From Lysobacterales bacterium (GTDB taxonomy: Bacteria > Pseudomonadota > Gammaproteobacteria > Xanthomonadales > SZUA-5), in assembly GCA_036722245.1 (NCBI GenBank), contig DAIMJK010000001.1:1-56791 (forward strand): 56,791 bases of DNA. Reading direction: 5' to 3'. A program made the translations under genes and the position numbers. Positions 5,802-22,347 of the stretch are shown in pieces. The notes beneath the pieces are model-generated. The model was not told the DNA's origin and did not search any database. It saw only the letters and a list, made by a program, of their open reading frames with translations. The first letter of the stretch is position 1. Each line of letters begins with the position of its first letter.

Positions 5802-5830
5802 GACCGTGACACCGGTCTACTTTATAGGCA

Positions 5831-6514: not shown

Positions 6515-6515
6515 A

Positions 6516-7025
6516 TCAGTCTCCCGGAACGACTCCGCAATCACGATCCTCAAGGTCGGCCAGGATCACGTCCCATGCCAAAATGGCGCGCGGCCGGAAC
6601 TCGCACTGCGGACGGACACGGCGCACCAACGCACGCGCTTCCTCTGCAGGCAGATCGTGCGCTATCTGCAGTGCGATGCCAAGAACCAATGCGGAACGCG
6701 CCCGCCCCAAGCTACATACGACGTAGGTAAACCGCCGCTGGCGCAGGCACTCGACTGTCTTCGAAACCGCATTCAGGAGGGCATGATATCCATCCTCGCC
6801 AATCTGCGTACGCCAGTTGCTTGACTGATCGACCGCTCCGGAGAAGACGTCGGTAAACCAGTAGTCCCAGGCAGTCAGCCCTTCCTTCATGGCCCCTTCG
6901 TACAGAATGCCGCTTGGCGAACCCGAAACATTGATCAAGGTATCCACACCGACTCGTCGCGCCAACAGCAACTCGCGCTCCAGCGGCAATGCACTGATTG
7001 CAAACCTAAACTCCATATTGAACAT
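6516..7025 (-). CDS. Dual-specificity/tyrosine-phosphatase-like protein (CX5R)
   Basis: P-loop YVVCSLGRARSALV matches C-x2-G-x2-R-S. About 169 aa, the usual DSP size. Confidence 0.65.
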   Translation of the reverse strand: MFNMEFRFAISALPLERELLLARRVGVDTLINVSGSPSGILYEGAMKEGLTAWDYWFTDVFSGAVDQSSNWRTQIGEDGYHALLNAVSKTVECLRQRRFTYVVCSLGRARSALVLGIALQIAHDLPAEEARALVRRVRPQCEFRPRAILAWDVILADLEDRDCGVVPGD

Positions 7026-7029
7026 GAAA

Positions 7030-10052: not shown

Positions 10053-10663
10053 TACTCCGCGGCCAGCGTGTCGATCGCCTGCTGCAAATATGGTTCAAAA
10101 AGCGCGAAGCTGTCCTGAGATAGCGCCTGCTGATAGTTCCTTTTCAGAACGATGTAGGTTTCCAATATTGCCTGGCGCTTTTGCGGTACGTTACCGATAG
10201 CGCCGGCCGCAGGCGTATCAATGCTCCTACGGGAACCGAATATCGCGGTGGACTTTTCGACCTCGCGCTTTGGAAACATGAAGGATTGAAGAATGGTCCG
10301 TAACCAGAGCAGGAGCTTGTCGCGAAACCAGTCATGATCGCGGATCAGCATCGCGGCGGTAGCATATACGCTGACGGTGGTGATATCGCGGGGCGCTTTC
10401 GCAGCAGCTGCTTCGTGATGCTCTTCGAAGGCGTAGATTGCGAAGATCTCACGCACGGTCTTCTCAACCACCCGTTGCTCGTGTTGCTCCACTTCTCTGG
10501 CGGCATCTACATAGGCAACACCGTTGGAGACCTGCCGCAGGTAGCTTGAGTACTCCTCAGAGTTCAAATGACGTCCCTCGCATCGTTTGAAAAGGTCCTG
10601 GATGGCCGAATTCCGACGCAGGCTTTCCGACGTTGATTTGTATTCCTTTGCTGGCGTAGGCAT
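10052..10663 (-). CDS. Phycobiliprotein-like globin (single domain, lacks the canonical bilin-attachment Cys)
   Basis: GRHLNSEEYSSYLRQVSNGVAYVDAAREVEQHEQRVVEKTVREIF...AKAPRDITTVSVYATAAMLIRD parallels allophycocyanin ARYLSPGELDRI..G..R...A......RII..A...LF...C-x-RD-x4-LR..Y....GD. Here Pro replaces the Cys before RD. Confidence 0.6.
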   Translation of the reverse strand: MPTPAKEYKSTSESLRRNSAIQDLFKRCEGRHLNSEEYSSYLRQVSNGVAYVDAAREVEQHEQRVVEKTVREIFAIYAFEEHHEAAAAKAPRDITTVSVYATAAMLIRDHDWFRDKLLLWLRTILQSFMFPKREVEKSTAIFGSRRSIDTPAAGAIGNVPQKRQAILETYIVLKRNYQQALSQDSFALFEPYLQQAIDTLAAE

Positions 10664-10675
10664 GACAAGGACTCT

Positions 10676-12922
10676 TTAATTCGTTGATGGGGACGGATCA
10701 CGAGCGGCCTCGCTGATCGCTTGATTTGTGGCCGCGGACATGGCGAAGCGCGCGAGATCGCGGTCATTCTCACCATGTTCCGCCTCGGCCGGTGTTACGC
10801 TGATGTGCTTGACATTCAGTGAACCCGACCAGGGCACCATTTCGAAATAGGAGCTTGCGGTCACTTCACTCAGCGGACACGCAAGCACCTGAAGGCGGCG
10901 GCGCTCTTTGTCTGCGTTGGCCTTCATTTCGGGCGCCCGTACCGCGTCGCTCGGCTTGTCGGTCGGCGGGGGATCCTGTTCGGTGACCACATGCGTGGCT
11001 CGTGGGGCCTGATTCACCGGAGGCGCTTTTCCGAGCACGGTAGCGGTGAATGACCCGCTGGCTGAAGCCATCTGTTTTCGAAGTAGCTGCGCTTCCAACG
11101 CCAGTTTCTCTACCCTTGCCGCAGCTGCCTTTTCCTTTGCCTGCTCAAGCTCCACATTGAGTGCCGCCATCGCCTCTGACAAGTCGCGTTGCTCGGCCTC
11201 TGCTGCGATGCGCAGACCATTGGCTTCAGCCAGGGCCGCTTCTCTCTGCTTGATCCTGGCCTTGAGCTCATCGTTCTCGTTGCTGAATCGGGTTTGCTCG
11301 GACAGCGCGTCTGTCGATTTCCTGGTCTCCGATCCAAGCGCCAGCTTGACGGAATTCAATTCACTTCGAACTGCATCCACTGCATCGACGGCTGCGAGCA
11401 GTTCTCTCTTCAAGCCTTGCGTTTCAGACTCGTACCGATCGCGTAATGCCACTTGTTCGGCATGAGCTTCATGAAGCCCTGTGCGGGCCAACGACAGTTC
11501 AGTTTTGATCTCCGCCAGCTGGCTTTCATACTTTTTCGCTTCGAGTAGTAGCCCGGTCTTGCCGTTCCGCAATTCTTCCAGTTCGGCAACGTCGGCGGCA
11601 GATTGCGAGCTTTGCGCGGAAGCCGTGCTGGTCAACTGGCGGAATTCCTTTTCCAGTTTCTCCAGCGCGCTTTCGAGCGCGACCCGCGCCGTGCTGGATT
11701 CCTCCAGCGCAAGGGCCAACGTCTCTGTTTCGTTGCGCAGCTTCTCCTCGAGCTCAGCCATCGCCAGGTTGTGCTGGTGCACGTGCTCATCGGCCTGAAT
11801 GCGCAACTGTTCTCGAATCAGCTGCAGATCCTGTTCGCACTGCTGCGCGTTCGTTTTCGCGTAGTCTCGTTCAGAGGTCAGGTCTGCGAGTTCCGCTTCG
11901 AGCCGATTGTGTTCTGCAGTACTGGCTTGTAGTTGCTCTCGTAAATGATCTAGCTCTGCTCGCACCGACTCCGCCGCCGCCGCCTGCAGTGTCAGCTCGG
12001 CACACTGCCTGGAACGTTGCTCCAACTGCTCAAGCTGGAGCAGATAGTCTGTTTCCAATGACTTTTGCTCTTCACGAAGCACATCAATCTGCCCATACAG
12101 ATCCTTCTTCTCGAGTTCGTGGGCTAGATGGTGTTCCTCGATCTGTTCCTGCAGACGCGCATTCCGAGCGTGTGTGTCGGCGATCTCATCGCGCAATGAT
12201 TCCGCTTCCACCCCAACCGCGGAGATCTCTTGTAGTGAAGCTTCCTGCCCCCCCGCAGGCAGAGTTGTGTCGCCTGATGCCAGCGCGCTCGCCTCGAGCT
12301 CGGCGACTTTCTCCTTCAGCAAATCACGTTCGTACGTCAGCTGATGCATGCTTACCGCCAGCGCATCCAGATCCGCCGAACCCTGATCGATCTGCCTGGC
12401 GCCCGGGCTTTCGCGCTCGGCAAGCTGAATCAGCGATCCCAGGCGCTCGTTGAGTGCGTCCAGTCGACGCTCAATCTCAAGTGTACCTTCGCCGATCTTG
12501 TTGACCAGGTCCACAGACAGAAACTCTCGTTGCCTGGCGATACGTTCCAGCTCGTCGGCGAGCGTCTGGACTTGCTCGAGCGCACGCTCGTAGGCCGCCT
12601 TTGTCTGATCACCCGAGTTCTCTGCTTCACGCCTGGAACTGGCGAAAGCCTCATCGTCGGCATGCTGGCTGTAGTCCAGACCTACCGCAGCTTGAAAGAC
12701 CGGCTTGGCATCGGAGTCAAACGCCCATTGCGGCAGCTTGTCCATCTCGAACGCCGCCTCGCCGCCATCGAAGGTCTCGGCTTCGCGGGACAGGACGTTC
12801 ATTTCGGAATCATGGCCACTTTGTGCTGCGCCATCGGAACTCTTATCACTGCCGACAGCGTGGGCAACGGTCGCGAAGAAGCTTCGGAGATGGGCGATCT
12901 GGGTCTTTTCGAGCTTGTCCAT
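10676..12922 (-). CDS. Long coiled-coil protein (SMC/myosin-tail-like rod) with non-coiled termini
   Basis: About 520 aa of heptad-like E/L/Q/A/R-rich sequence (e.g. LEQVQTLADELERIARQ, LREQLQASTAEHNRLEAELADL). ATG 12922 is preceded by GAGGAG and lies 10 nt after the upstream stop. Confidence 0.7.
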   Translation of the reverse strand: MDKLEKTQIAHLRSFFATVAHAVGSDKSSDGAAQSGHDSEMNVLSREAETFDGGEAAFEMDKLPQWAFDSDAKPVFQAAVGLDYSQHADDEAFASSRREAENSGDQTKAAYERALEQVQTLADELERIARQREFLSVDLVNKIGEGTLEIERRLDALNERLGSLIQLAERESPGARQIDQGSADLDALAVSMHQLTYERDLLKEKVAELEASALASGDTTLPAGGQEASLQEISAVGVEAESLRDEIADTHARNARLQEQIEEHHLAHELEKKDLYGQIDVLREEQKSLETDYLLQLEQLEQRSRQCAELTLQAAAAESVRAELDHLREQLQASTAEHNRLEAELADLTSERDYAKTNAQQCEQDLQLIREQLRIQADEHVHQHNLAMAELEEKLRNETETLALALEESSTARVALESALEKLEKEFRQLTSTASAQSSQSAADVAELEELRNGKTGLLLEAKKYESQLAEIKTELSLARTGLHEAHAEQVALRDRYESETQGLKRELLAAVDAVDAVRSELNSVKLALGSETRKSTDALSEQTRFSNENDELKARIKQREAALAEANGLRIAAEAEQRDLSEAMAALNVELEQAKEKAAAARVEKLALEAQLLRKQMASASGSFTATVLGKAPPVNQAPRATHVVTEQDPPPTDKPSDAVRAPEMKANADKERRRLQVLACPLSEVTASSYFEMVPWSGSLNVKHISVTPAEAEHGENDRDLARFAMSAATNQAISEAARDPSPSTN

Positions 12923-12932
12923 GGCGATCTCC

Positions 12933-13592
12933 TCAGCCGAGTTTTTCCATGATGTCACGGGCGGAAGCGCCTTCTTCCCGCCAGAATTCGGCCGCGTTCA
13001 CCCTGGTTTCATCGCTGATCAGAAATTTGCAAACATCATTTCCCATTGCGTAGCATTGAACCTCAATGCTTTGCAAGTCGCGCTGATGGAAATAGGAAAA
13101 CGCACCAGCAAACAATCCGGCATATAGATGACACACCGGACGTCCAGCCATCTTCATGGACTTGGCCACTGCGGAGTTCCGGATCTCCACCATGGTGATA
13201 TCGTTGTCGCTGAAACTCAGATCCAGGGTCCAACCACCGAAACCCTCTACGGTCAGTGGCCACCACCAGCATTCCCAAATGAAGGCGGGATTCATCTGCC
13301 AGATATCCAGCCGTCCGCCACCGAACTCGTGGCGCATCCGGTTATTGAAGCGTTTCATGTCCTGCAGCGCCCACTCCTGACCGCAGCGGTACATCAACAG
13401 GCCGCTGCCGGTACCGACCTCTTCCTCGATTCCCAGATGCAGCCCGTTGATGAAGGATTCCGAGACCCGCGCCGCACGCTGCCCATCCCGAAGGTAGATC
13501 GCCCCCTCTGAACGCTCGTGGCGAAAGAACTCCTCGGGCATGTAGTAGTTGTGATAACCGGCAACTCCACCGGCAACTGTATCAATGGCCAT
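12933..13592 (-). CDS. V4R (4-vinyl-reductase-type) small-molecule-binding domain protein
   Basis: FGGWTLDLSF...VEIRNSAVA...RPVCHLYAGLFAGAFSYF...SIEVQCYAMGNDVCKFLI matches the classic V4R G-W-G ... C-H ... E-x2-C-x3-G-x3-C-x-F pattern. Confidence 0.72.
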   Translation of the reverse strand: MAIDTVAGGVAGYHNYYMPEEFFRHERSEGAIYLRDGQRAARVSESFINGLHLGIEEEVGTGSGLLMYRCGQEWALQDMKRFNNRMRHEFGGGRLDIWQMNPAFIWECWWWPLTVEGFGGWTLDLSFSDNDITMVEIRNSAVAKSMKMAGRPVCHLYAGLFAGAFSYFHQRDLQSIEVQCYAMGNDVCKFLISDETRVNAAEFWREEGASARDIMEKLG

Positions 13593-13601
13593 ACTGATTC
13601 C

Positions 13602-14069
13602 TCAGGCGGTCTGAACGTCACGAACGCTGAAATCAACGTCCCTGAGCTGCATTATGGAAGAGCGGATGATTATCTTTCTTGCCTCAACCAGCACTTCACC
13701 GGTCACCGGGTGAAGTATCGGCACTGTGGTTCGCTGGCCGATCAAGCTCTCGAGCTCGGAATACGACTCGACGTAGAGACCATCTGGCAGCGCCACTTCC
13801 ACGCCATCACTGATCACTCGAGCCTGACAAGACAAGCGGCTGTTTGGCTGTGCTCCGGTCAATATGCTCAAGGCGAGCTTTTCTCGCTGCGAGGGCGGGG
13901 TCAGGCACTTCTCTCCGGCGACCACGTAAACGTGGCAAGTCGCGCACAGGCCGCGTCCGCCACACAGCATCTTCACCGGAACCTGGTTGGCCAGCAATGC
14001 ATCCAGTAGCCTGGATTCGGTTGGTAAATCGACTTTGGTTCCGTCAGCTCTAAAGGCAATTGTTTTCAT
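13602..14069 (-). CDS. [2Fe-2S] ferredoxin with a ~55-aa C-terminal extension
   Basis: Cys36-x5-Cys42-x2-Cys45-x35-Cys81 (MLCGGRGLCATCHV ... RLSCQ). The ATG overlaps the upstream stop (ATGA at 14066-14069). Confidence 0.88.
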   Translation of the reverse strand: MKTIAFRADGTKVDLPTESRLLDALLANQVPVKMLCGGRGLCATCHVYVVAGEKCLTPPSQREKLALSILTGAQPNSRLSCQARVISDGVEVALPDGLYVESYSELESLIGQRTTVPILHPVTGEVLVEARKIIIRSSIMQLRDVDFSVRDVQTA

Positions 14070-17000
14070 TGGGCAGCAACCTCAGGCGCATAGCTTTCGC
14101 GTTCAATCAGATCGAGTATTGGCAACAACGCCGGCCGGTGTCTGCCGGGGACCGCGGACACGAGCTCTCGCAGCCAGGTCATGGCCGAGGAGGGATCGGT
14201 GGCGATCAGGGTTTCCGTGTTGATGCTCACACCCATCCGCATGGCTCTGGAACTCTGCCGCGCGCGATCCAGCAGGTCGTGCGGAACATCGATGACTTGA
14301 GCCAGTGCAATCGCCAGGGTGCTGGCTGCCTGCATTTCCGGCAACAATGCGTTGATCTCGCGCAATCGATCAAGCAGTCCCTGTGCCGGGCTTCCCAAGC
14401 GGTCCAGATATTCAATCGAAAGTTGCAGCGCGATACCAATGTGTTCGGCCGGGTACCCTTGCCAAATGCCGTGTTGAGTTCTCCAGAGCCACGCCCTAGC
14501 GCTGGCGAACGGCGCGCCTTCGCGTAACGGAGCTGTTTCCAGAGCCAGTGTCTGCAGCGCCAGGACGAACTGTGCGTTTCGCATGGGCGAGGCGTAGCCA
14601 GCTCCGCGCGGAGGCAGTATGTGCTCCTGTCTGAGCATCAGGGCATCAGCAAATCGTGCCTGGGTCTGGCGCAAGCTCAGCATGTCCGGGCATTGCCAGC
14701 CGGTGGCGCGGGCTACCGGAATGTCTCCCGGCATCGGTGTGGTGAGGCCGTCGTCCTCGGCCTGGACCCAGCGATCGGCACGCCACAGCCAGTGTGCGGC
14801 AGCCAATTCCGAATGCACGACGCAGTAGATGTCAAAACCATGGGGCTCTTCGCTGCTTGCAATGGTGGAGCAGCGATTGAGTACTGTCCCGATTTCGTCC
14901 AAGACGTCGGCAACTGCGGCATTGAGCGGCTCGTCAGTATCGTCTCGCAGCACTTGGCTCAAACCTGGCAGCACCTCATCCCATTCGTTCGCGAACGACT
15001 CATTGACCAAGGGGCTGAGCATCAACGTGCGTGCGACGAAAGCACGGCTCCTGGTCCCGGCGGCGCGACCCGCTGCGGCTGCGAGCAACGCCGAGGCGAA
15101 CTGGCGCCAGTTGGCCTCCATTTCTGGATCGGTCGAGAACACTGCATCGGTCGATGCAAAAACCCTTCGACCGATTCGGTGCAAGGCTTCGGCATGGCGA
15201 GTCATTGCCATGGCGACTTCGGTCAGCTGCGTCCATGCCTCTCGCGCACCGCAGCGGCTGCCGTTTGACAATACTCTGCCGAGCTCGTCGAGAACCAGCC
15301 GCCAACTGCGAGGCTTGAACGGGACATGGCTGATCAGGCAGGTCAACAGATAGCGGCAGACCTCGATGTCCGCGCAATGGGACGCCGGGCCATGCAACGC
15401 TTGAACCATGAAGCGAATCAGAAGTTGCTGATCACGGAGTCCTTTCTCACGATACAGCCACTGCTCATCAGGTGGGCCTTCATGCAGCTCGGGCAACAGA
15501 TCAGCCACCGCGATGGCCATCTCGCTCTGTCGCGCGTGCAGTGTGTGACCCAGGGCAGTCAGCCGGAGGCGGTCCAGGCCCACTTCCAGCAGACACAGCC
15601 AGAACCCGCTCTGCGCCGGCGTCAATGACTGCTGCGTTATGACACAAAGCTTGAACCAGGCGCTCTCGATCTCTGACAAGGCGTGCCGATCCAGTAGTTT
15701 TTGCTGGATCGGCATGGTGCGCGACCACGCCAGCGCCAGATCGCCATGCTCGTTCAAGCCGTCCGCGGCGGACCGCCAGAGGTCCAATAGACCGCGTCCC
15801 AGCGAGTCGAGGGTGCTGGGTTCCACGCGTTCAAGCGCTCGGTGGTGCGATGGTGATGATCGACGCGTTCCGAACAGCGCGTCCCACAGCGGACTCGGCT
15901 GGTCGAACGTATCGAAGCTCAGAACCGCGTCGCTGGAAAGCTCACGCGGAATGTCGATCGACAGCGCCTTGCGATAGACGGTCGACAACACATCCAGCGC
16001 AACACAGTACTCGCTGTAGTCAAGAATACTCCGCAATTCGGCGGCGAGTTTCGCCAGATTGCCTTGCATGACTGGCTCATCGCGGTTGACCAGATAGATG
16101 CCGATGGTCGACAACCACCACCAGGTCATCGCAGCACTGGGGGAAGCAGTTGCTCCACCCAGCACCTGGCCCAGTCTGAGCAAGGTAAACTCATTGTCTC
16201 GCAGGGTTGAGGCGCGACCGCGTTCACCGATCCTCTCGGCGTACTCGGGGAACTCGGACAGGGTAGCCGCCGAGGCTGATACTGCCATCAAGTGCGCGCG
16301 ACGAACAATCTTCACCCCGGCGCCCAGTTGCGGCAGGCTCGCGCAGAAGGCGCTCAACAACCCAAACGGTCGCCCGGTTGCGTACGCGCTGTTGATGGCC
16401 ATTTGGTGACGCCAGTCCCTCAGCGCATCGATAGCGCGATCGGTATCCTGCTCATCTCCCGCGGCCAACAGGACCCGTGCCGTCCAGGCGCGCAACTCGG
16501 CGTACGCATGATGCTCTTGATAGCAGCAGAGCACCTGCAGGAGTTCGAAGCAACGTTGCAGCCAGACCTTGGTGCCCCCTATCTCGCACGTTGGCGCGGT
16601 CAGCGCGAAGCTGCAATCATCCAGTTCGGCAAGGTCTCGGCAAATGTCCGGCAACAGCTCGAGCAAAGCCACAAGCTGGCTGTCCGTGCTCAACCTATCA
16701 TCCTCGTTTGCGCACGAGAGCATCGATCGGGCGTAGCTCGAAAGTGTCGCACCGCTCTCCCAGATGCTCTCGCCGTGGGCGCACAGGAAGGGCATCCGCA
16801 TCCGAAACAGCTGTTGACGCGCTCCGGTGTCATGACCGAAGGCCGCCGCTCGGCGAGCCTCCACCAAGGCATGCCGAATGCGCTGATTCAAACCGGTCGC
16901 GTCCGCGCCGGCGCTGGTATCGATAACCGCAAGCGCTGGCTGGGACGAGGCTTCGGCACTGACCAACAAGACCGCCCGGTCAAGGAAGTCAAGCGCATCG

Positions 17001-18028
17001 GACAACGGGTCGAGATAATTTCGCTCCCAGCGCCGCCGCATCACCATCAGTATCTGCCGCTGTGCTTCCACCCAGCGCTCTCGGAAGTCGCTGCTGCTCG
17101 GCGCGCCGATTCCGGCATGACGAAACTGCCCGCACAGGCGCGAGTTCAGTTGCGCCTCGGGCCTGAGTTGTGCCAGGCACAACAGCGGCAGCAGGTCACT
17201 CAGGATTCCCGCATCCGCCGGCAAGTATGGCCTCGCGTCCGCGATAACATCGGCGATGAAGTCAAAGCGTGGCACCGCGCCGACCAAGGCCGCGACCGCA
17301 GCGCCGAACGCATGGCTCAGACGTTTCGATGCGCGCGCCGTGAAAGCTCGATCCAACCGCAGCAGCAGCAAGGACCACAGTCTGGCATCGAGCTTGAAGC
17401 TGCCCAGCATGCGATCGAGGAACAGGCGCACGAGTTCGACGTCGACGAGCGCTCCTGCATCCTCGGCGCATGCGCTCCAGTCAGTCAACAGCTGTGCGAG
17501 TGTCTGTTCCATGGCTTGATAGTCCGGCGCGGAACCCTCGCCGAAGAACTCGAAGGCATACCGGACGCCGACCAACACTTCGGCGCTGATGACCGTGGCA
17601 TCGGCACCGATCCGGGTCCTCTGAGAGGCAACCGCGGCAAACTCAGTCAGTTCCCACAGGCTTACCTCTGCCAGACAGCGGGCACGGCACGAAAGCTTGG
17701 TTGAAATCAGATGCAGAACTACTTCAGCAACGCATTGCGCGAACTCGCTCCGATCGCCCTGAAGCACCACCCAGGCGCGATCAGAGAGTGGCTCGTTGCT
17801 GCCTCCTCCACGCAGACGCTTGAGCACATCGGCAATGATGCGTGCGACCTGTTCAGCATGGTTCTGGGGGCCGTCTTTACGCAGGCTTAAATGCCGCAGT
17901 ACCTCGGAGGGGTCGATCTGCTCAAGGGCGTCGCAGATCTCCGAGCACAGCGGCGCGGAAATCTCACCGGGCAAGCGGTCGGCTTCAAAGCCATGGAACG
18001 CGGGAGCCAAAGGGGAAGTCGCCATCAT
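14066..18028 (-). CDS. 1320-aa Trp/Cys-rich all-helical repeat protein, related to the poly-globin protein upstream
   Basis: Uninterrupted ORF. Start at ATG 18028, directly after the upstream TAG (TAGGATGATG). The N-terminal module AEQVARIIADVLKRLRGGGSNEPLSDRAWVVL resembles AERCVRDVTIVLRMIALSLGDGGSDPASQLRAWSSV of the 767-aa protein. No NTPase or enzyme motif seen. Confidence 0.75.
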   Translation of the reverse strand: MMATSPLAPAFHGFEADRLPGEISAPLCSEICDALEQIDPSEVLRHLSLRKDGPQNHAEQVARIIADVLKRLRGGGSNEPLSDRAWVVLQGDRSEFAQCVAEVVLHLISTKLSCRARCLAEVSLWELTEFAAVASQRTRIGADATVISAEVLVGVRYAFEFFGEGSAPDYQAMEQTLAQLLTDWSACAEDAGALVDVELVRLFLDRMLGSFKLDARLWSLLLLRLDRAFTARASKRLSHAFGAAVAALVGAVPRFDFIADVIADARPYLPADAGILSDLLPLLCLAQLRPEAQLNSRLCGQFRHAGIGAPSSSDFRERWVEAQRQILMVMRRRWERNYLDPLSDALDFLDRAVLLVSAEASSQPALAVIDTSAGADATGLNQRIRHALVEARRAAAFGHDTGARQQLFRMRMPFLCAHGESIWESGATLSSYARSMLSCANEDDRLSTDSQLVALLELLPDICRDLAELDDCSFALTAPTCEIGGTKVWLQRCFELLQVLCCYQEHHAYAELRAWTARVLLAAGDEQDTDRAIDALRDWRHQMAINSAYATGRPFGLLSAFCASLPQLGAGVKIVRRAHLMAVSASAATLSEFPEYAERIGERGRASTLRDNEFTLLRLGQVLGGATASPSAAMTWWWLSTIGIYLVNRDEPVMQGNLAKLAAELRSILDYSEYCVALDVLSTVYRKALSIDIPRELSSDAVLSFDTFDQPSPLWDALFGTRRSSPSHHRALERVEPSTLDSLGRGLLDLWRSAADGLNEHGDLALAWSRTMPIQQKLLDRHALSEIESAWFKLCVITQQSLTPAQSGFWLCLLEVGLDRLRLTALGHTLHARQSEMAIAVADLLPELHEGPPDEQWLYREKGLRDQQLLIRFMVQALHGPASHCADIEVCRYLLTCLISHVPFKPRSWRLVLDELGRVLSNGSRCGAREAWTQLTEVAMAMTRHAEALHRIGRRVFASTDAVFSTDPEMEANWRQFASALLAAAAGRAAGTRSRAFVARTLMLSPLVNESFANEWDEVLPGLSQVLRDDTDEPLNAAVADVLDEIGTVLNRCSTIASSEEPHGFDIYCVVHSELAAAHWLWRADRWVQAEDDGLTTPMPGDIPVARATGWQCPDMLSLRQTQARFADALMLRQEHILPPRGAGYASPMRNAQFVLALQTLALETAPLREGAPFASARAWLWRTQHGIWQGYPAEHIGIALQLSIEYLDRLGSPAQGLLDRLREINALLPEMQAASTLAIALAQVIDVPHDLLDRARQSSRAMRMGVSINTETLIATDPSSAMTWLRELVSAVPGRHRPALLPILDLIERESYAPEVAAQ

Positions 18029-18029
18029 C

Positions 18030-20288
18030 CTAGTCCTGAGCCACGCCATAGACCGCGTCCAGCAACGCCCTGATCCGCGCTCTGGATTGCGGCGGGTAGC
18101 TTTCAATCTGCTTCTCGATGCAATCGGGCAGATGCTCTGTCATCGTCCGGGTTGGCACAGCCAGAAACGGGAGTAAGTGCACGCTGCTCCAGGCACGCAG
18201 CTGAGAGGCAGGATCCGAACCTCCGTCGCCAAGCGACAGCGCGATCATCCGCAAAACGATGGTCACGTCGCGGACGCAGCGTTCGGCAGCCTGATCCATC
18301 GCCAGCTCGGTCCACAGAGGCAGAGATTGCAGGTGTGCAATCGCGCCGCCCGCGATCGTCGAGCTGTTGCTGAACAGCGGCTCGGCGATCCCCAAGTCGG
18401 AAGCACAATCCAGCAAGTGCGCCTTGAGGGCACCCAGGCCATCCGTGAATGAGGGATCTCCCGATTCTTCCAGGAGCGCACAGGATTCACTCACGACCCG
18501 GGTCAATGCCTCAACTCTTGCAGCGGGATCAGCTTCGCACAGCAGTTCCACCAGTGGTGCCGTTGTGTGTGCGAGATAGCGGCCAGCAATCGCCCGACCG
18601 AGGCCTTCTTCCTCGGGCAACAACAGGGCGAACAAGATTTGCCGCGCGCAACCCGCAATCAATGGATCGGCGTTGCCCACGTTCAGTTGCAGCTGCACGC
18701 GGGCTGCGCTTACTGCGTGATAGCGGGGTGATTGCGCGCCTATATCGGCAAGGTAAGTCGACAAATGTTCGTTGTTTGCGGCGAGGGAGTCGGCGATCTC
18801 GTCAGCCCCAATTTCCTCCATCAGCCTCGCTCGGAGGCCGGCCTCGACACCGCAATCAGGATCCACTTGGCCGATGATCCACGCCCACCATCGCTCTGCC
18901 GTGAGCGAGTAGTCGCCGCGACATGACAACTCGGCTGCGCGCGTGAGCAACAGGCAAACCCACCGCTCCGCCGCAGCAACCGCTACCGTGTCGAGAGGCT
19001 TGTGCCGCGCCACGATCCTGGTCGCAGCCTGGGCGATTGCTGGCAACAAACGCGAAACACTGGCGAACTGGTGCGCCGCGGCCACGGCGATTCTCAGCAG
19101 CAGATCAAGATCGTCCCCGTAGTGAACACCCAATCGCTTGCTCGCCGTGGCGTGCAGTGTTCGTATCGCGGTTTCGGCGTGTTCAGAATCGCCAGTGGGG
19201 AGTCTGGTGCTGGCGCTCTCCAGCCAGTACTCAGCGATGGATGAGCGCAAACCGGTGTTGCCCGTCCCCAGATCGACGGCCGCAAAACGCAGCACATCCG
19301 TGAAAACATCACAATACAGGGCCGCATCGCTCGCTGAGGAGTCTTTGGCAACGACCATTGCCGCGCTGCGCGCAATCTCCGGTGCCAGCACGAATACCTG
19401 CAGCGCGCTCCGCGCATCGGTATCGGCGCAAGCAAGCGAGTACATCGCGGAGGCCGCGGTTCGCGCCGGAGACCATGCCAGCTGCTCAGCCGTGCCGCGC
19501 AGCAAGCCGGCAAAGGTAGCTCGCCATAGACTGCCGGAATAGCGGCCGATGTAACGACCCACCCGATCGAAGATCCAGCTCATCCATGCGCGTTGTGCCG
19601 CAACCACCGTCGGTGCCGCCAAGGCGGCCTGTGCAGCCCCCAGAATCATGCTCATGTCGCGAATGCACTTTCCTTCGCCGGATGGACCGTAGGTCAGCAC
19701 TGCCTGCGGATGTGAACTGGCTACGGCTTCCCAGGCAATACCCGCGATTGCAGCTGCGTGAGTGGCCAGGACTGCCCCCGCGGACCCATTCCGCACGAAG
19801 CTGCGCGCACCGCGCAGGTGATCCACGCAGAGTTCGGCTGCTTCGGCGGACAAGCGCTGCTGCGTGGCAAGAACGGCGTAGTCCAGCAGCAGCGCGGAAG
19901 CATCGGCGAATTCCATCCCGGCGCGCGCAGCCAACACAAGCTGACTCAACACACTGACTTCCAGACCATGCCGGTCTCCGCCCGCTACAGATGCGCTCAA
20001 ACCGCGCAACAAGAGCGCAAGGTCGCGCCGACAAGACCGCGTCAACTGGGCGTTGTCGATGCGCCCGGAGACCAGGAAGGCTTCAGCAGCCTGCTCGGCT
20101 GCCTGCGCAGCGATCTCATCCGCCGCGCGGTACATTGCCGACGCGCAAGCAAGGCGGTGGCCCAACGTCAGCGCGCGGCAACGTTCGGCGAAAGCGCCGC
20201 TCGAGAATGTATCCGGTGAGTCTACCCAGAACGTGCGCTCCAGCGACTGCGTAGCGACTTCCCTCGTCGCGCCATTTTCTCCCAACAT
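18030..20288 (-). CDS. Multi-domain protein with six tandem ~120-aa phycobiliprotein-like (globin) modules
   Basis: Recurrent motif: SCRRDLALLLRGLSASVAGGD, KCIRDMSMILGAAQ, YCDVFTDVLRFAAVDLGTGN, WVCLLLTRAAELSCRGD, GCARQILFALLL, RCVRDVTIVLRMIALSLGDGG. ATG 20288 follows GAGGAAGG. The alternative ATG 20333 overlaps the EAL gene stop by 14 nt. Confidence 0.75.
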   Translation of the reverse strand: MLGENGATREVATQSLERTFWVDSPDTFSSGAFAERCRALTLGHRLACASAMYRAADEIAAQAAEQAAEAFLVSGRIDNAQLTRSCRRDLALLLRGLSASVAGGDRHGLEVSVLSQLVLAARAGMEFADASALLLDYAVLATQQRLSAEAAELCVDHLRGARSFVRNGSAGAVLATHAAAIAGIAWEAVASSHPQAVLTYGPSGEGKCIRDMSMILGAAQAALAAPTVVAAQRAWMSWIFDRVGRYIGRYSGSLWRATFAGLLRGTAEQLAWSPARTAASAMYSLACADTDARSALQVFVLAPEIARSAAMVVAKDSSASDAALYCDVFTDVLRFAAVDLGTGNTGLRSSIAEYWLESASTRLPTGDSEHAETAIRTLHATASKRLGVHYGDDLDLLLRIAVAAAHQFASVSRLLPAIAQAATRIVARHKPLDTVAVAAAERWVCLLLTRAAELSCRGDYSLTAERWWAWIIGQVDPDCGVEAGLRARLMEEIGADEIADSLAANNEHLSTYLADIGAQSPRYHAVSAARVQLQLNVGNADPLIAGCARQILFALLLPEEEGLGRAIAGRYLAHTTAPLVELLCEADPAARVEALTRVVSESCALLEESGDPSFTDGLGALKAHLLDCASDLGIAEPLFSNSSTIAGGAIAHLQSLPLWTELAMDQAAERCVRDVTIVLRMIALSLGDGGSDPASQLRAWSSVHLLPFLAVPTRTMTEHLPDCIEKQIESYPPQSRARIRALLDAVYGVAQD

Positions 20289-20319
20289 GTTGCCTTCCTC
20301 GTCAGATGTGTATCGGTGG

Positions 20320-22347
20320 TCAACCATGGTCATCGGTCATTTCCCGCGGGTGACCCAGCAAGTATCCCTGCAACAACTCGCACCCCATGTCACGCAAACA
20401 TGCCAACTGTGCTGGCTCCTCGACGCCTTCGGCGGTGACCGACAATCCGAGACGACCGGCCAGATCGACCAGCGCATGAACCATGGTTTGATCGCGACCG
20501 AGCTGGGCGACAAGCTGCACGAACCGCCGATCGATCTTGATTCCCGCGATGGGGAATCGCTGCAGATGGGTCAATGATGAAAAACCCACCCCGAAGTCAT
20601 CCAGAATCAACTTGACCCCCAAATCACACAGGCAATGCAGCCGAGCCAGTGTCATGCTCTCGTCACAGAACAGCGCCGTCTCTGTCAATTCAATACGCAA
20701 AGACTGGATTATTTCGGGGGACTCTTGCCGCAACCGGGCAAGATAAGTGTCCAGGCCGCTGCCGGCCAGCGTGCGTGGTGACACATTCACGCTGATCCAA
20801 TGCTCCCTGCGCTGCTGCCCGACATGCCACTTCCTCAGCTGACCCAGCACTGCGGCGAGCATCCACTCGTCAATCAGCGGGATAGCGCCACCCGCTTCAG
20901 CGACGTCCAGAAATTCCATTGGCTGCAGCAGACCATGAATCGGATGTTGCCAGCGCACCAGAGCCTCATAGCCTGCCGTGCCCAGATTTCCGGCCGCGAA
21001 GATGGGCTGGAGATAACAGCGCAGCTCTTCGTTGGCTACGGCCGCATGCAAGTCGGAGAGAAGCTCGATTCGGCGTTGGGTTTCGTCACGCATGACTGGA
21101 TCGTATGCAACCACCTGACCGAAACCGCGGTCCTTGGCTTGATGCAAGGCGGAGTCTGCCGCTCGAACCAGATCGGTCGCATTGGTCGAACAGTACTCGG
21201 GCGTGACCACACCAATGGAGGCACTCAGCACCAGTCGCGACCCCTCGATTGGAAGGGACGTGGAAAAAATTCGCATGATCCTCCCGACCAGTGCATCGAT
21301 CTCGGCCTGGCCGTTTGAGTAATCAAGCATCACCGCGAACTCATCGGCACCAAACCGGGCGACATAATCGGTTTCCCGAATTGCAACCCGGATCCTCGTT
21401 GCCAGAGTGCGCAAGACACCATCACCAACACGTTCGCCCAACCCATCGTTGATCAAGCGAAATCTATCAATATCCAGCAATAGCAACGCTGGTGCCGAAA
21501 CCGTGGTATCGGACAATCGGTCCTTGAGTTTTCGCAGGAAGCTCACCCTATTTGGCAAGCGAGTGAGCGGATCGAAATACGCAGCCCGACCAAGCTGCCG
21601 CTCCACTCTCTTCTGCGGCCGCATGTCATATGCGCTGACAATCAGATACGTATCACTGCCGAAAGCCGCGATCTCGACGCTAAGCAGAACCGGCATTTGA
21701 TATCCAGAGCGGGTCAGCAGCGCATCTTCCAGCTTCACCGGTCCGAACACATTGTCAGCAAAGAGGGTGCTGAGTCTGTTTGTTCTGAAAATCTGATCAA
21801 AGTGGAGTGATCCGAACTCACCAACGGAATATCCACTATGCTCTTGAAAGCAACGATTCCATCGTATCACTACGCCGCTGGAATTGAATACGCAGAACAT
21901 CGCGGGCAATGCGTCCATGATCGTCTGTGCGAACCGGAGTTCACGCGCAATGCTGCAAGTTCGATCCGCGATCCCAAAACTACCGATGGACACCGGATGT
22001 TGCTCGGAGAGCACTGCCGGCATGGGTCGTACGCGAAGCTCAATATTCAGCGCGCCGTCGGGTCTTGAACTGCTCGCGGCGGAACATTCCAGGCGATGAT
22101 CCAATTTGTACCAGTGGCCCGGGGAGGGACCCCGGCTGGCCTCCGCGAAGACTCGACCCAAGACCACCGACAGCGCCGGATCAAGGGCCGCGATCAGAGT
22201 GTGAAAAGCGTCTGGAGTCTCGACCAGGTCGAACTCGCGCAGCAACCTCGCGTCGGCATACAACACCTGCCCGCTCTCGATCAGGAGCTTCATTTCCGAA
22301 TGCGCCCCGGCGGCAGTGCCGGGAGGCCTTTCGACCACCTGATTCAT
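20320..22347 (-). CDS. PAS-GGDEF-EAL c-di-GMP turnover protein
   Basis: GGDEF-domain block RFGADEFAVML (GADEF variant). EAL blocks GYEALVRW, IELTE, LDDFGVGFSS, KIDRRF, EGVE and QGYL. Start at MNQVVERPP (ATG 22347, GGAGAG upstream) or ATG 22428. The track start 22794 would overlap gvpL and encodes junk. Confidence 0.85.
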   Translation of the reverse strand: MNQVVERPPGTAAGAHSEMKLLIESGQVLYADARLLREFDLVETPDAFHTLIAALDPALSVVLGRVFAEASRGPSPGHWYKLDHRLECSAASSSRPDGALNIELRVRPMPAVLSEQHPVSIGSFGIADRTCSIARELRFAQTIMDALPAMFCVFNSSGVVIRWNRCFQEHSGYSVGEFGSLHFDQIFRTNRLSTLFADNVFGPVKLEDALLTRSGYQMPVLLSVEIAAFGSDTYLIVSAYDMRPQKRVERQLGRAAYFDPLTRLPNRVSFLRKLKDRLSDTTVSAPALLLLDIDRFRLINDGLGERVGDGVLRTLATRIRVAIRETDYVARFGADEFAVMLDYSNGQAEIDALVGRIMRIFSTSLPIEGSRLVLSASIGVVTPEYCSTNATDLVRAADSALHQAKDRGFGQVVAYDPVMRDETQRRIELLSDLHAAVANEELRCYLQPIFAAGNLGTAGYEALVRWQHPIHGLLQPMEFLDVAEAGGAIPLIDEWMLAAVLGQLRKWHVGQQRREHWISVNVSPRTLAGSGLDTYLARLRQESPEIIQSLRIELTETALFCDESMTLARLHCLCDLGVKLILDDFGVGFSSLTHLQRFPIAGIKIDRRFVQLVAQLGRDQTMVHALVDLAGRLGLSVTAEGVEEPAQLACLRDMGCELLQGYLLGHPREMTDDHG

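What the first reader, a model, noticed from the sequence alone, without database searches (positions are those of the whole stretch)
14066..18028. 1320-aa Trp/Cys-rich helical giant, translationally coupled to the hexa-globin and sharing its module type
The start codon follows the upstream stop directly (TAGGATGATG). The first module (HAEQVARIIADVLKRLRGGGSNEPLSDRAWVVL) is visibly homologous to the last module of the 767-aa protein (AAERCVRDVTIVLRMIALSLGDGGSDPASQLRAWSSV).

Similar C...D/E...L...R-x-W stretches recur:
- ACAEDAGALVDVELVRLFLDRMLGSFKLDARLWSLL
- RCFELLQVLCCYQEHHAYAELRAWTARVLL
- HCADIEVCRYLLTCLISHVPFKPRSWRLVL
- LCVITQQSLTPAQSGFWLCLL

Their rough spacing is 110-140 residues, which suggests about 10 further degenerate modules. 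There is no Walker, kinase or other catalytic motif. Together the two proteins would provide about 16 globin-like units encoded back to back.
Basis: inference. Interest (0 to 1): 0.72.

Follow-up and report, generated by a model that had tools for sequence, protein, structure and literature searches.

The report
Twelve-module phycobiliprotein-like globin array protein
The 1320-residue protein is a real, conserved gene made of about twelve fused, degenerate phycobiliprotein-type globin domains, a doubled copy of the 767-residue protein encoded just upstream. It sits in a bilin-pigment gene cluster of a non-cyanobacterial bacterium, and this kind of protein appears not to have been described.

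Summary
A minus-strand ORF (14066-18028, 1320 aa) starts one base after the stop of the 767-aa gene, and its own stop overlaps the start of the ferredoxin gene (ATGA).

BLASTP and Pfam see nothing in it, but profile methods do.
- An exhaustive HMMER search found a family of 71 representatives, mostly 1150-2100 aa.
- The family profile hits C-phycocyanin alpha chains in the PDB (E=3e-7 at aa ~546-632; E=7e-6 at aa ~1208-1268).
- hhalign aligns the 767-aa family to giant aa 13-688 (probability 100%, E=2e-40). It also shows an internal duplication: aa 82-363 matches 774-1057, and 455-643 matches 1118-1291.
- AlphaFold models (pLDDT 89-90) are all-helical. Phycobiliproteins and globins are the only PDB folds matched with high Foldseek probability.

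The giant therefore equals two 767-like units of about six modules each. Four modules are confidently phycobiliprotein-like and the rest are degenerate.

Many family members carry the bilin-attachment motif CxRD at homologous sites. This giant has none (TLRD, GLRD), whereas its 767-aa partner has three.

The gene order HO / array / Fer2 / V4R / BBAG / V4R / kinase / FDBR recurs in at least six loci. This is the pre-PcyA cluster of Rockwell et al. 2023.

Most likely the giant is a largely cysteine-less partner or scaffold of a bilin-binding multi-globin complex. That function is inferred, not shown.

The parts
14066..18028 (-). The giant ORF: 1320 aa from the first ATG, or 1319 aa (P0001) from the ATG at 18025. 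Residue numbers elsewhere in this report follow P0001.
   Evidence: It has 71 family representatives.
18023..18032 (-). Junction TAG-G-ATG-ATG between the 767-aa gene and the giant, suggesting translational coupling.
   Evidence: L002 and L003 have ATGA overlaps at the same junction.
15962..17989 (-). Unit A (aa 13-688). It is a paralogue of the whole 767-aa protein and holds about six globin-type modules, A1-A6.
   Evidence: hhalign probability 100%, E=2e-40, 767-family residues 39-764 against giant 13-686. Controls.
14069..15928 (-). Unit B (aa ~700-1319). It is an internal duplicate of unit A, more diverged and about 70 aa shorter.
   Evidence: aa 82-363 aligns with 774-1057 (up to 97.5%) and aa 455-643 with 1118-1291 (90-96%).
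17756..17881 (-). Module A1 E-helix and loop (aa 49-90; RKDGPQNHAEQVARIIADVLKRLRGGGSNEPLSDRAW).
   Evidence: It aligns confidently with 767-aa residues 98-120, the C101-RRD site of module 1. Family conservation is low here.
17246..17749 (-). Module A2 (aa ~93-260). The position equivalent to CxRD reads M172-E-Q-T, so the site is degenerate.
   Evidence: A2 matches B2 at hhalign 98%. It aligns to the C223-IRD site of the 767-aa protein.
16664..17245 (-). Modules A3-A4 (aa ~261-454). These are helical and their globin nature is not shown by sequence.
   Evidence: They align to the middle of the 767-aa protein on the main diagonal. A3 matches B3 at only 28-34%.
16454..16663 (-). Module A5 core (aa ~455-524; WLQRCFELLQVLCCY...AELRAW).
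   Evidence: Some family members have CxRD at this position. It aligns with B5 at 90-96%. The profile of aa 375-530, taken alone, gives no phycobiliprotein hit in the PDB.
15950..16453 (-). Module A6 (aa 525-692). This is the best-preserved phycobiliprotein-type domain.
   Evidence: The family profile hits C-phycocyanin alpha with E=3.2e-7 over aa ~546-632. It also aligns with the PF00502-positive C-terminus of the 767-aa protein.
16196..16207 (-). T607-L-R-D. This is the site equivalent to the Cys84-x-Arg-Asp bilin-attachment motif, with Thr in place of Cys.
   Evidence: In the family the Cys column is Cys in 33 sequences, the Arg column Arg in 35, and the Asp column Asp in 58. Coordinates were checked.
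15680..15928 (-). Module B1 (aa ~700-782). Its E-helix is at aa ~741-760, followed by GDLALAW.
   Evidence: aa 774-850 aligns with 82-160. 767-aa residues 558-582 align with giant 745-769. As an isolated module it shows no significant similarity.
15146..15679 (-). Module B2 (aa 783-960), a phycobiliprotein-type domain.
   Evidence: It matches A6 at 94-95% and A2 at 98%. With its sub-profile, 10 of 11 PDB hits are phycobiliprotein alpha chains aligned in register, but E is only 0.18-0.8.
15431..15442 (-). G862-L-R-D. This is the second site equivalent to CxRD, with Gly in place of Cys.
   Evidence: In the family the Cys column is Cys in 35 sequences, Arg in 41 and Asp in 42. The orthologue P0002 has KCVRD here.
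14675..15145 (-). Modules B3-B4 (aa ~961-1117). These are helical and degenerate, and B4 is shortened.
   Evidence: aa 201-360 aligns with 892-1057 at 94%. B2 matches B3 at 37-40%.
14450..14674 (-). Module B5 (aa ~1118-1192; SPMRNAQFVLALQTLAL...SARAW).
   Evidence: It aligns with A5. 767-aa residues 685-703 align with giant 1148-1166.
14069..14449 (-). Module B6 (aa 1193-1319). It is phycobiliprotein-type, but this protein lacks about 21 residues that include the CxRD site.
   Evidence: The family profile hits CpcA 8iml_A with E=6.9e-6 over aa ~1208-1268. A6 matches B6 at 94%. The deletion is visible.
18030..20333 (-). The upstream 767-aa paralogue, a single unit of about six modules. It carries three CxRD motifs, at C101, C223 and C686.
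   Evidence: PF00502 E=1e-11 at residues 635-760. CxRD sites. As a single sequence it hits only phycobiliproteins in the PDB.
13602..14069 (-). 2Fe-2S ferredoxin gene. Its start overlaps the giant's stop (ATGA).
   Evidence: It lies immediately downstream of the array gene in L001, L003, L004 and L008, and one gene further down in L007.
4593..13592 (-). The rest of the conserved cluster: V4R (12933-13592), coiled-coil protein (10676-12958), single-domain BBAG/PF00502 (10052-10663), V4R-like (9363-10052), Ser/Thr kinase (7658-9394), an unknown 224-aa protein (7030-7704), ferredoxin-dependent bilin reductase (5831-6553), and a ferredoxin-reductase-like flavoprotein (4593-5801).
   Evidence: The same order is seen in L001, L003, L004 and L007.

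Best explanation
The gene encodes a soluble, all-helical protein built from about twelve tandem, degenerate phycobiliprotein-type globin modules. The modules form two six-module units. Unit A (aa 13-688) is a paralogue of the whole 767-aa protein encoded immediately upstream. Unit B (aa ~700-1319) is an older internal duplicate of that unit.

The protein belongs to an uncharacterised family of one-, two- and three-unit 'globin arrays'. These are a standing component of pre-PcyA bilin-biosynthesis clusters (heme oxygenase, ferredoxin-dependent bilin reductase, 2Fe-2S ferredoxin, two V4R proteins, a single-domain BBAG, and a SpkG-like kinase).

Inferred mechanism. The array is the bilin-accepting or bilin-organising protein of the cluster. 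In many relatives three or more modules keep the covalent-attachment motif CxRD. In this lineage the cysteines have moved entirely to the 767-aa partner (C101, C223, C686). The giant keeps only Arg-Asp at two sites (TLRD at 607, GLRD at 862).

The giant therefore most likely acts as a cysteine-less partner or scaffold. It would be made stoichiometrically with, and would assemble with, the chromophorylated 767-aa protein, much as paralogous phycobiliprotein subunits pair. At most it would bind bilin non-covalently. The output would go through the co-encoded ferredoxin, V4R proteins, kinase and c-di-GMP proteins.

Shown here: the architecture, the homology, the family, the synteny and the motif distribution. 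Inferred: bilin binding, hetero-assembly and the signalling or light-related role.
For: Family. An exhaustive HMMER search gave 71 hits, 24 with E<=1e-30, homologous over the full length.

Phycobiliprotein homology. The family profile against PDB sequences returns mostly phycobiliproteins (all 60 rows shown of 117). The best is C-phycocyanin alpha at E=3.2e-7, aligned so that Cys84-Ala-Arg-Asp falls on giant 607-610. A second region scores E=6.9e-6.

Paralogy with the 767-aa protein. hhalign gives probability 100%, E=2e-40, with shifted registers at 85-98%. Reversed and shuffled controls score at most 28.

Internal duplication and module relations are shown.

Structure. The AF2 models have pLDDT 89.7 with pTM 0.84 and pLDDT 89.0 with pTM 0.91. 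For the C-terminal part, Foldseek returns phycocyanin, allophycocyanin, phycoerythrin and smURFP at probability 0.93-1.00, with target-normalised TM-scores of 0.5-0.76. Every other fold has probability <=0.15. For the N-terminal part, phycocyanin alpha and haemoglobins have probability 0.5-0.69 and tandem di-alpha haemoglobin 0.2-0.44. All other folds are at 0.20 or below.

CxRD at homologous positions. P0023 has it at 607/862/1259 and P0047 has six sites in three pairs. None occurs in P0001, P0004, P0005 or P0006. The 767-aa protein has three, and the L002 and L003 upstream partners have two each.

Fused forms. Three-unit proteins occur in loci that lack a separate 7xx-aa gene.

Synteny is conserved in L001, L003, L004, L007 and L008.

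Translational coupling is seen at both ends of the gene.

Published work. The cluster type and bilin binding by its single-domain globins, with CxRD as the attachment motif, are described in PMC10151467 and PMC13446030.
Against: The giant itself has no CxRD. Its last module has lost the site altogether.

Only 4 of about 12 modules are demonstrably phycobiliprotein-like. The isolated module blocks tested (A1, A3, A4, B1, B3, B4 as delimited, which cover what the final map calls A1, A3-A5, B1 and B3-B5) show no significant similarity to them. The profile of the A4-A5 region (aa 375-530) hits no phycobiliprotein.

Foldseek E-values for the whole models are above 0.1, so only the probability and TM-scores support the match.

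Pfam PF00502 does not detect the giant even at E<=10.

hhalign finds no similarity to the cluster's own BBAG (probability 0.5%).

There is no experimental evidence that any array protein binds bilin or that the two proteins associate. The modules could not be cut out of the models for domain-level structure comparison.

Confidence: 0.6

Rival explanations
1. The giant is itself a multi-bilin chromoprotein, either an antenna or a photosensor. It would bind bilins non-covalently in the modules that keep Arg-Asp (A6, B2), and perhaps in others, without needing the 767-aa partner.
For: R609/D610 and R864/D865 are retained. These are the residues that hydrogen-bond the bilin in phycobiliproteins (PMC10151467). 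BBAG-2 proteins bind biliverdin without CxRD. The window's own single-domain BBAG also lacks the Cys, reading APRD.
Against: All attachment cysteines have been lost in this subclade (P0001, P0004-P0006). They are kept in the adjacent 7xx-aa partners of the three loci checked (window, L002, L003), which suggests a division of labour. Ten of the twelve modules lack even the Arg-Asp pair.
Confidence: 0.2
2. The array is a chromophore-free sensor or scaffold built from non-haem globin folds, comparable to the RsbR N-terminal globins of the stressosome. It would organise the ferredoxin, V4R proteins, kinase and GGDEF-EAL proteins, with bilin bound only by the small BBAG.
For: The modules are degenerate and the giant has no CxRD. 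The model is rigid, with pTM 0.84-0.91. The gene is tightly coupled to Fer2 and has a kinase, a GGDEF-EAL protein and many two-component genes as neighbours.
Against: CxRD is the family consensus at two to three homologous sites, and many members carry 3-6 such motifs. That is hard to explain without bilin attachment. The partner 767-aa protein has three.
Confidence: 0.12
3. It is a generic alpha-helical repeat or solenoid protein (HEAT, ARM or TPR-like), or a haem-binding multi-domain haemoglobin, and the resemblance to phycobiliproteins is compositional.
For: The protein is rich in Ala, Leu and Arg. Pfam and BLASTP find nothing. The top Foldseek rows by E-value are large helical proteins such as separase, Ski3 and importin. 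The N-terminal part also matches haemoglobins.
Against: Those solenoid matches have probability <=0.15 and rmsd of 25-38 A. Reversed and shuffled controls remove the hhalign signal. The PDB sequence hits are mostly phycobiliproteins and are aligned in register on the CxRD motif. No haem-pocket evidence was found.
Confidence: 0.05

Closest known systems
BBAGs (bilin biosynthesis-associated globins) of pre-PcyA clusters (Rockwell, Martin & Lagarias 2023, PMC10151467)
   Same: It is encoded in the same cluster type (HO, FDBR, Fe-S protein, two V4R proteins). It is a phycobiliprotein-related globin, and CxRD is the family consensus at several modules. [quoted passage not shown]
   Different: Described BBAGs are single-domain proteins of about 190-200 aa. 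This protein is a fusion of about 12 modules, 1319 aa long. It has no detectable profile similarity to the cluster's own BBAG and no cysteine at any CxRD-equivalent site. In the held literature I found no description of multi-module arrays.
Light-harvesting phycobiliproteins (PF00502; for example C-phycocyanin alpha, allophycocyanin, and the derivative smURFP)
   Same: Modules A6 and B6 match phycocyanin alpha at profile level. The fold matches. The E-helix motif x-x-R-D followed by a Gly-rich loop is present.
   Different: Phycobiliproteins are separate polypeptides of about 160-175 aa that form alpha-beta heterodimers, trimers and hexamers, and they carry covalent bilins. Here the modules are concatenated in one chain, are shorter (about 110 aa spacing), and are mostly degenerate and cysteine-less. 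The host cluster is of the type reported in non-cyanobacterial bacteria, and the one named relative is a MAG labelled Xanthomonas sp.. PF00502 does not detect the giant.
ApcE (LCM), the phycobilisome core-membrane linker
   Same: It is a large polypeptide that embeds a phycobiliprotein-type domain and acts as an organising scaffold for other phycobiliproteins.
   Different: ApcE has one phycobiliprotein domain followed by REP/linker domains (PF00427). No linker domain is detected here, and the repeat unit is the globin itself.
Multi-domain (polymeric) globins of invertebrates and engineered tandem di-alpha haemoglobin
   Same: Several globin folds are concatenated in one chain. The N-terminal model matches tandem di-alpha haemoglobin over about 265 columns, though only weakly (probability 0.2-0.44).
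   Different: Those proteins are haem-binding oxygen carriers of the haemoglobin lineage. This protein is of the phycobiliprotein/BBAG lineage and shows no evidence of haem ligation.
The Synechocystis slr0144-slr0152 cluster (Fe-S protein Slr0148/Fd5, V4R proteins, BBAG Slr0149, kinase SpkG)
   Same: It shares the core of neighbours with this locus: Fer2, two V4R proteins, a BBAG and a Ser/Thr kinase (PMC10151467).
   Different: As that cluster is described in the paper, it has no array protein, no FDBR and no HO.

Membership tests
Phycobiliprotein superfamily (Pfam PF00502 'Phycobilisome protein') | Significant sequence match to PF00502 or to bona fide phycobiliproteins | tested here: inconclusive
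   The giant alone gives no PF00502 hit, either whole or in ten segments at E<=10. The family profile hits C-phycocyanin alpha at E=3.2e-7 and CpcA at 6.9e-6. The remote members P0047 and P0072 pass the PF00502 cut-off. The 767-aa paralogue passes it too (45.5 bits).
Phycobiliprotein superfamily (Pfam PF00502 'Phycobilisome protein') | Phycobiliprotein-type globin fold | tested here: met
   The C-terminal model (pLDDT 89.7) matches phycocyanin, allophycocyanin, phycoerythrin and smURFP at Foldseek probability 0.93-1.00, target-normalised TM-score 0.5-0.76, and rmsd 2.9 A over about 130 columns for smURFP. The N-terminal part matches more weakly, at probability 0.5-0.69. Which modules produce the match could not be resolved.
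Phycobiliprotein superfamily (Pfam PF00502 'Phycobilisome protein') | Cys-x-Arg-Asp covalent bilin-attachment motif on the E helix | tested here: not met
   There is no CxRD anywhere in the giant. The homologous sites read TLRD (607) and GLRD (862), and other sites are degenerate or deleted. The motif is the family consensus and occurs three times in the 767-aa partner.
Phycobiliprotein superfamily (Pfam PF00502 'Phycobilisome protein') | Bilin chromophore bound; assembly into alpha-beta type oligomers | not testable with these tools
   This needs expression with HO and FDBR, spectroscopy, zinc blot, and SEC or cryo-EM.
BBAG (Rockwell et al. 2023) | Globin homologue encoded in a cluster with HO and/or a pre-PcyA FDBR | tested here: met
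   FDBR is at 5831-6553 and HO at 33012-33914. Fer2, V4R x2 and a BBAG are adjacent. The same order is seen in L003, L004, L007 and L008.
BBAG (Rockwell et al. 2023) | Placement in the BBAG-1/BBAG-3 clade, or similarity to those proteins | tested here: inconclusive
   hhalign of the cluster's BBAG (three orthologues) against the giant family gives probability 0.5%, and against the 767-aa family 2.7%. No phylogeny was run.
BBAG (Rockwell et al. 2023) | Demonstrated bilin binding | not testable with these tools
   This is experimental.
Phycobilisome linker / ApcE | PF00427 linker (REP) domains | tested here: not met
   No Pfam hit of any kind.
HEAT/ARM/TPR-type helical solenoids | Repeat-family HMM match or a solenoid fold match | tested here: not met
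   No Pfam repeat family matches. Foldseek solenoid matches have probability <=0.15 and rmsd >25 A.
Haem globins (haemoglobin, globin-coupled sensors) | Proximal His and haem pocket; match to PF00042 or a sensor-globin family | tested here: inconclusive
   No Pfam globin hit. The N-terminal model matches haemoglobin chains at probability 0.5-0.63, similar to its match to phycocyanin. Haem-ligand residues were not analysed.

The most novel reading that the evidence does not exclude
The one-, two- and three-unit arrays (6, 12 or 18 fused phycobiliprotein-type globins, many with several CxRD sites) could be single-chain, multi-bilin assemblies of non-photosynthetic bacteria. In effect they would be a covalently linked 'proto-phycobilisome rod' or a multi-chromophore photosensor. 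Their modules might be closer to light-harvesting phycobiliproteins than the single-domain BBAGs are. If so, they would bear directly on the unresolved origin of phycobiliproteins and of alpha/beta pairing. In this genome the system has split into a chromophorylated 767-aa subunit and a cysteine-less 12-module scaffold.
Probability: 0.2. Interest if true: 0.85.

Novelty: new variant of a known kind. Interest (0 to 1): 0.68.

Why it matters
Rockwell et al. (2023) traced phycocyanobilin synthesis and phycobiliproteins to bilin clusters of heterotrophic bacteria, but left the precise origin of light-harvesting phycobiliproteins open. They analysed only the small single-domain globins.

This finding shows that many of those clusters also encode a much larger component that has not been characterised. 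These are chains of 6, 12 or 18 phycobiliprotein-type globins, often with several canonical bilin-attachment motifs, and they sit between the heme oxygenase and ferredoxin genes.

The family offers three things:
- a new candidate bilin acceptor for pre-PcyA enzymes;
- a natural example of concatenated phycobiliprotein folds, which is relevant to how oligomeric antenna proteins arose and to engineering fluorescent proteins of the smURFP type;
- a concrete, testable pair (the Cys-bearing 767-aa protein and the Cys-less giant) for asking what bilins do in non-photosynthetic bacteria.

Tried and rejected
Searches that found nothing:
- BLASTP of the giant against the 767-aa protein, against the coiled-coil protein, and against itself.
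- Pfam on the whole protein and on ten overlapping 220-aa segments at E<=10, and NCBIfam.

Searches that were uninformative:
- The word-indexed homologue search found only one orthologue.
- The same search for the 767-aa protein returned only itself.
- hhalign's built-in self-comparison mode returned an empty table. I replaced it with sub-alignment against alignment runs.

Negative tests:
- The A5-region sub-profile (aa 375-530, modules A4-A5) against the PDB gave only designed helical bundles and Rop, and no phycobiliprotein.
- The cluster's BBAG showed no similarity to the giant or to the 767-aa family.
- The isolated A1 and B1 modules showed no similarity to any other module. Their assignment as modules rests on the long-range alignments alone.

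Other points:
- The most remote family hit, P0072 (E=9e-4), is not in a bilin cluster, so the family boundary is fuzzy.
- The source organism of the window could not be identified. The one named relative is a MAG labelled 'uncultured Xanthomonas sp.'.
- The supplement of the Rockwell paper did not list the genes between its HO and BBAG.
- I rejected a spurious-ORF explanation, because 71 homologues exist and synteny is conserved. I rejected a solenoid explanation, for the reasons given under the rival explanations.

Full report
**The observation**

The finding's coordinates correspond to a minus-strand ORF, 14066..18028, of 1320 aa from the first ATG. NCBI's gene call starts one codon later (P0001, 1319 aa), and I use that numbering throughout.

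The upstream 767-aa ORF (18030..20333) ends in TAG. One G follows, then ATG ATG, with an AGGA 5 nt upstream. The giant's own stop overlaps the start of the downstream 2Fe-2S ferredoxin gene (ATGA). In two related loci the upstream gene overlaps the giant's start by ATGA. Coupled expression of 767-aa protein, giant and Fer2 is therefore plausible and conserved.

Trp (2.3%) and Cys (2.0%) are about 2.2x and 1.6x the pooled values of the other window ORFs.

Pairwise methods see nothing. Self-BLASTP finds no repeat. Pfam and NCBIfam find nothing, even on ten 220-aa segments at E<=10.

**Genomic context**

The neighbourhood is a bilin cluster, all on the minus strand:

| Window coordinates | Gene product |
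|---|---|
| 4593-5801 | ferredoxin-reductase-like flavoprotein |
| 5831-6553 | ferredoxin-dependent bilin reductase (FDBR) |
| 7030-7704 | unknown 224-aa protein |
| 7658-9394 | Ser/Thr kinase |
| 9363-10052 | V4R-like protein |
| 10052-10663 | single-domain PF00502 protein (BBAG) |
| 10676-12958 | 760-aa coiled-coil protein |
| 12933-13592 | V4R protein |
| 13602-14069 | Fer2 (2Fe-2S ferredoxin) |
| 14066-18028 | the giant |
| 18030-20333 | the 767-aa protein |
| 20320-22794 | PAS-GGDEF-EAL protein |
| 33012-33914 | heme oxygenase (HO) |

This is the pre-PcyA cluster type of Rockwell, Martin & Lagarias 2023 (PMC10151467). They named the small globins BBAGs and showed that these bind bilins, with CxRD as the attachment motif. 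PMC13446030 follows up the reductases. [quoted passage not shown] I found no description of multi-module giants in it or elsewhere in the held literature.

**A real family**

The word-indexed search found one orthologue (P0002, 46% identity) with identical downstream synteny. A genome scan found a third locus, in a MAG labelled Xanthomonas sp. (33% identity).

The exhaustive HMMER search with aa 121-1320 found 71 representatives: 53 at E<=1e-10 and 24 at E<=1e-30. Most are 1150-2100 aa and homologous over the full length. A group of proteins of about 770 aa matched only with their C-terminal 130 residues.

The genomic contexts are as follows.

| Locus | Gene order |
|---|---|
| L003 | GvpL/F, PAS-GGDEF-EAL, 717 aa, 1282 aa, Fer2, V4R, 721 aa, BBAG, V4R-like, kinase, ..., FDBR, reductase, phytochrome |
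| L004 | FDBR, response regulator, HO, 1791 aa, Fer2, V4R, 279 aa, BBAG, V4R, kinase |
| L007 | HO, 1947 aa, ..., Fer2, V4R, ..., BBAG, V4R, kinase, ..., FDBR |
| L008 | HO, 1870 aa, Fer2 |
| L009 | not in such a cluster (the weakest hit, P0072, E=9e-4) |

**Homology to phycobiliproteins**

A profile of the 71-sequence alignment searched against all PDB sequences returned mostly phycobiliproteins. All 60 rows shown, out of 117 matches, are phycobiliproteins.
- The best hit is C-phycocyanin alpha (4h0m_A, E=3.2e-7) over profile positions 565-646, which are giant aa ~546-627.
- In that alignment, phycocyanin's K-C84-A-R-D aligns with the family consensus 'scarDN' and with giant S-T607-L-R-D-N.
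- A second, independent region (profile positions 1223-1293, giant aa ~1208-1268) hits CpcA at E=6.9e-6.
- Two remote members pass Pfam's PF00502 threshold.
- The 767-aa protein passes it at residues 635-760. As a single sequence it hits only phycobiliproteins in the PDB, through both its first and its last module (NCBIfam).

**Relation to the 767-aa protein, and internal repeats**

I aligned the 767-aa protein with its relatives: the L002 745-aa protein, P0059, P0061, P0065 and P0068. I then compared that alignment with the giant family by hhalign.

The main alignment has probability 100%, E=2e-40, score 348. It runs from 767-aa residues 39-764 to giant 13-686. Six further register-shifted alignments have probabilities of 85-98% and scores of 60-131. 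With the template reversed or its columns shuffled, the best scores were 27.7 and at most 16.

Sliding 160-aa windows of the giant family against the whole family show a clean internal duplication:
- aa 82-363 aligns with 774-1057 (shift ~690, up to 97.5%);
- aa 455-643 aligns with 1118-1291 (shift ~664, 90-96%);
- a secondary register aligns aa 497-683 with 756-938 (shift ~257, ~90%).

So the giant is unit A (a 767-like unit) followed by unit B (a diverged copy). The 1791-aa and 2139-aa members contain three such units. Loci with three-unit proteins have no separate 7xx-aa gene. Fused and split forms therefore coexist, which argues that the 767-aa protein and the giant work together.

**Module map**

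In all confident shifted alignments, the three CxRD sites of the 767-aa protein (C101, C223, C686) and its other E-helix-like segments (~340, ~457, ~562) fall on a recurring set of giant positions. These are approximately aa 55, 172, ~295, ~382, 489, 607, 747, 862, ~980, ~1075, 1149 and ~1257. Most of them coincide with predicted helices in the AF2 models.

That gives about 12 modules with spacing of about 75-140 aa, mostly 105-125, arranged as six per unit. The 767-aa protein has six.

The evidence differs by module.
- **Confident.** Four modules are linked at module level: A2 with B2 at 98%, A6 with B2 at 94-95%, and A6 with B6 at 94%. A B2 sub-profile gives 10 phycobiliprotein alpha chains among 11 PDB hits, aligned in register on CxRD, but at E=0.18-0.8.
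- **Partly supported.** Modules A5 and B5 are supported by the unit duplication and by CxRD motifs at that position in some members. The A5-region profile alone (aa 375-530) hits no phycobiliprotein.
- **Context only.** A1, A3, A4, B1, B3 and B4 are modules only by position in the long alignments.

Its relation to the last module is transitive only. It is also the least conserved part of the family.

**Structure**

AF2 was run with the family alignments. The model of aa 521-1319 has pLDDT 89.7 and pTM 0.84. The model of aa 1-535 has pLDDT 89.0 and pTM 0.91. Both are entirely helical, with about 65 helices in total. The high pTM indicates a rigid array rather than beads on a string.

For the C-terminal model, Foldseek against the PDB gives poor whole-query E-values (above 0.1). 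The only matches with high probability are phycobiliproteins and the allophycocyanin-derived smURFP: probability 0.93-1.00, target-normalised TM-score 0.5-0.76, and rmsd 2.9 A over about 130 columns. Large solenoids and transporters have probability <=0.15 and rmsd above 25 A.

For the N-terminal model the best-probability matches are phycocyanin alpha (0.57-0.69), haemoglobin chains (0.5-0.63) and tandem di-alpha haemoglobin (0.2-0.44 over about 265 columns). I could not excise single modules from the models, so which modules carry the match is unknown.

**The bilin-attachment motif**

Across the family, the column of giant T607 is Cys in 33 sequences. The Arg column two positions on is Arg in 35, and the next column is Asp in 58. 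The column of G862 is Cys in 35, with Arg in 41 and Asp in 42.

Many members have CxRD at three homologous sites. P0023 has it at 607/862/1259 and P0010 at 607/870/1289. P0047 has six, in three pairs about 122 aa apart, one pair per unit. By rough estimate, chance would give about 0.1 CxRD per protein.

The giant has none. It reads TLRD and GLRD, its last module has lost about 21 residues including the site, and its other sites are degenerate (for example M172-E-Q-T). Its nearest relatives P0004, P0005 and P0006 also have none, and P0002 has one.

The adjacent upstream proteins keep the motif: three in the window (C101, C223, C686) and two each in L002 and L003. The window's small BBAG reads APRD. 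So the only canonical covalent sites in this cluster are on the 767-aa protein.

**Interpretation**

Architecture (high confidence, about 0.9). The protein is a two-unit array of about 12 modules of phycobiliprotein-type globin folds. It is a paralogue of the upstream six-module protein, and a member of an uncharacterised family that is a standing part of pre-PcyA clusters.

Function (inferred, about 0.5-0.6). The array family is a bilin acceptor or organiser. In this lineage the giant has become a cysteine-less partner or scaffold for the chromophorylated 767-aa protein. It would be co-translated with that protein and with the ferredoxin. It may retain non-covalent binding at the two Arg-Asp sites.

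Rivals, none of them excluded experimentally: an independent non-covalent chromoprotein; a chromophore-free signalling scaffold of the RsbR type; and a generic solenoid or haem globin, which the controls and fold matches make unlikely.

**Novelty**

The fold, the motif and the cluster are known. A concatenated chain of 6, 12 or 18 phycobiliprotein-type globins is not described in the literature I could search. It differs from single-domain BBAGs, from alpha/beta phycobiliproteins and from ApcE. I rate it a new variant of a known kind.

Its main interest is for the origin of phycobiliproteins and for the function of bilins in non-photosynthetic bacteria.

Noticed in passing
window 25502-30351 (minus strand): A gas-vesicle gene cluster lies next to the bilin cluster. 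It comprises a GvpH/Hsp20-like gene (25502-26083), GvpA/J-like (25983-26390), GvpK-like (26400-26744), a second GvpA/J/M-like (26692-26910), GvpG-like (26907-27113), GvpL/F (27116-27847, Pfam E=2.6e-51) and a GvpN-like AAA gene (28480-29688). L003 also has GvpL/F directly upstream of the PAS-GGDEF-EAL, 717-aa and giant genes. A link between the bilin system and buoyancy is therefore conceivable.
   Followed up: partly
window 10052-10663 (-) and 18030-20333 (-): The cluster's single-domain BBAG reads K-A-P-R-D, so it has no Cys at the CxRD position. The giant has no CxRD either. The only canonical covalent bilin sites in the whole cluster are C101, C223 and C686 of the 767-aa protein.
   Followed up: partly
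window 10676-12958 (-); L001 5167-7863; L002 14936-18319; L003 15036-17201; L004 16527-17366; L007 15749-16822: A gene with no Pfam family always sits between the first V4R gene and the BBAG gene. Its length varies widely: 760, 898, 1127, 721, 279 and 357 aa. In the window it is an SMC-like coiled coil (weak NCBIfam hits only).
   Followed up: no
L004 10001-15376, L007 8001-13844, L008 5383-10995: Three-unit arrays (1791-1947 aa) occur in loci where heme oxygenase is directly upstream and there is no separate 7xx-aa gene. This is a natural fused counterpart of the window's split pair (767 aa plus 1320 aa).
   Followed up: partly
window 23391-25553 (-): A CDC48/p97-type ATPase (CDC48_N plus two AAA domains, 720 aa) lies between the bilin cluster and the gas-vesicle genes. 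Its role is unknown.
   Followed up: no
window 7030-7704 (-); L003 20432-21076; L004 20315-20923; L007 19871-20515: A conserved protein of about 200-224 aa with no known family follows the Ser/Thr kinase in every cluster examined. L003 also adds a dual-specificity phosphatase (DSPc), and a bacteriophytochrome histidine kinase lies next to its cluster.
   Followed up: no
window 1295-3793 and 30679-52533: The contig is unusually dense in signalling genes: several hybrid histidine kinases, response regulators, GGDEF and EAL proteins, a CheA-like kinase and an MCP. HO (33012-33914) sits about 13 kb from the array genes (20 kb from the small BBAG) among two-component genes, rather than directly upstream of the array as in L004, L007 and L008.
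   Followed up: no
L009 8001-12410 (P0072): The most remote family hit (1469 aa, four CxRD motifs, PF00502 at 47.7 bits with two stretches) is not in a bilin-biosynthesis cluster. Multi-phycobiliprotein-like proteins may therefore exist outside pre-PcyA contexts.
   Followed up: no
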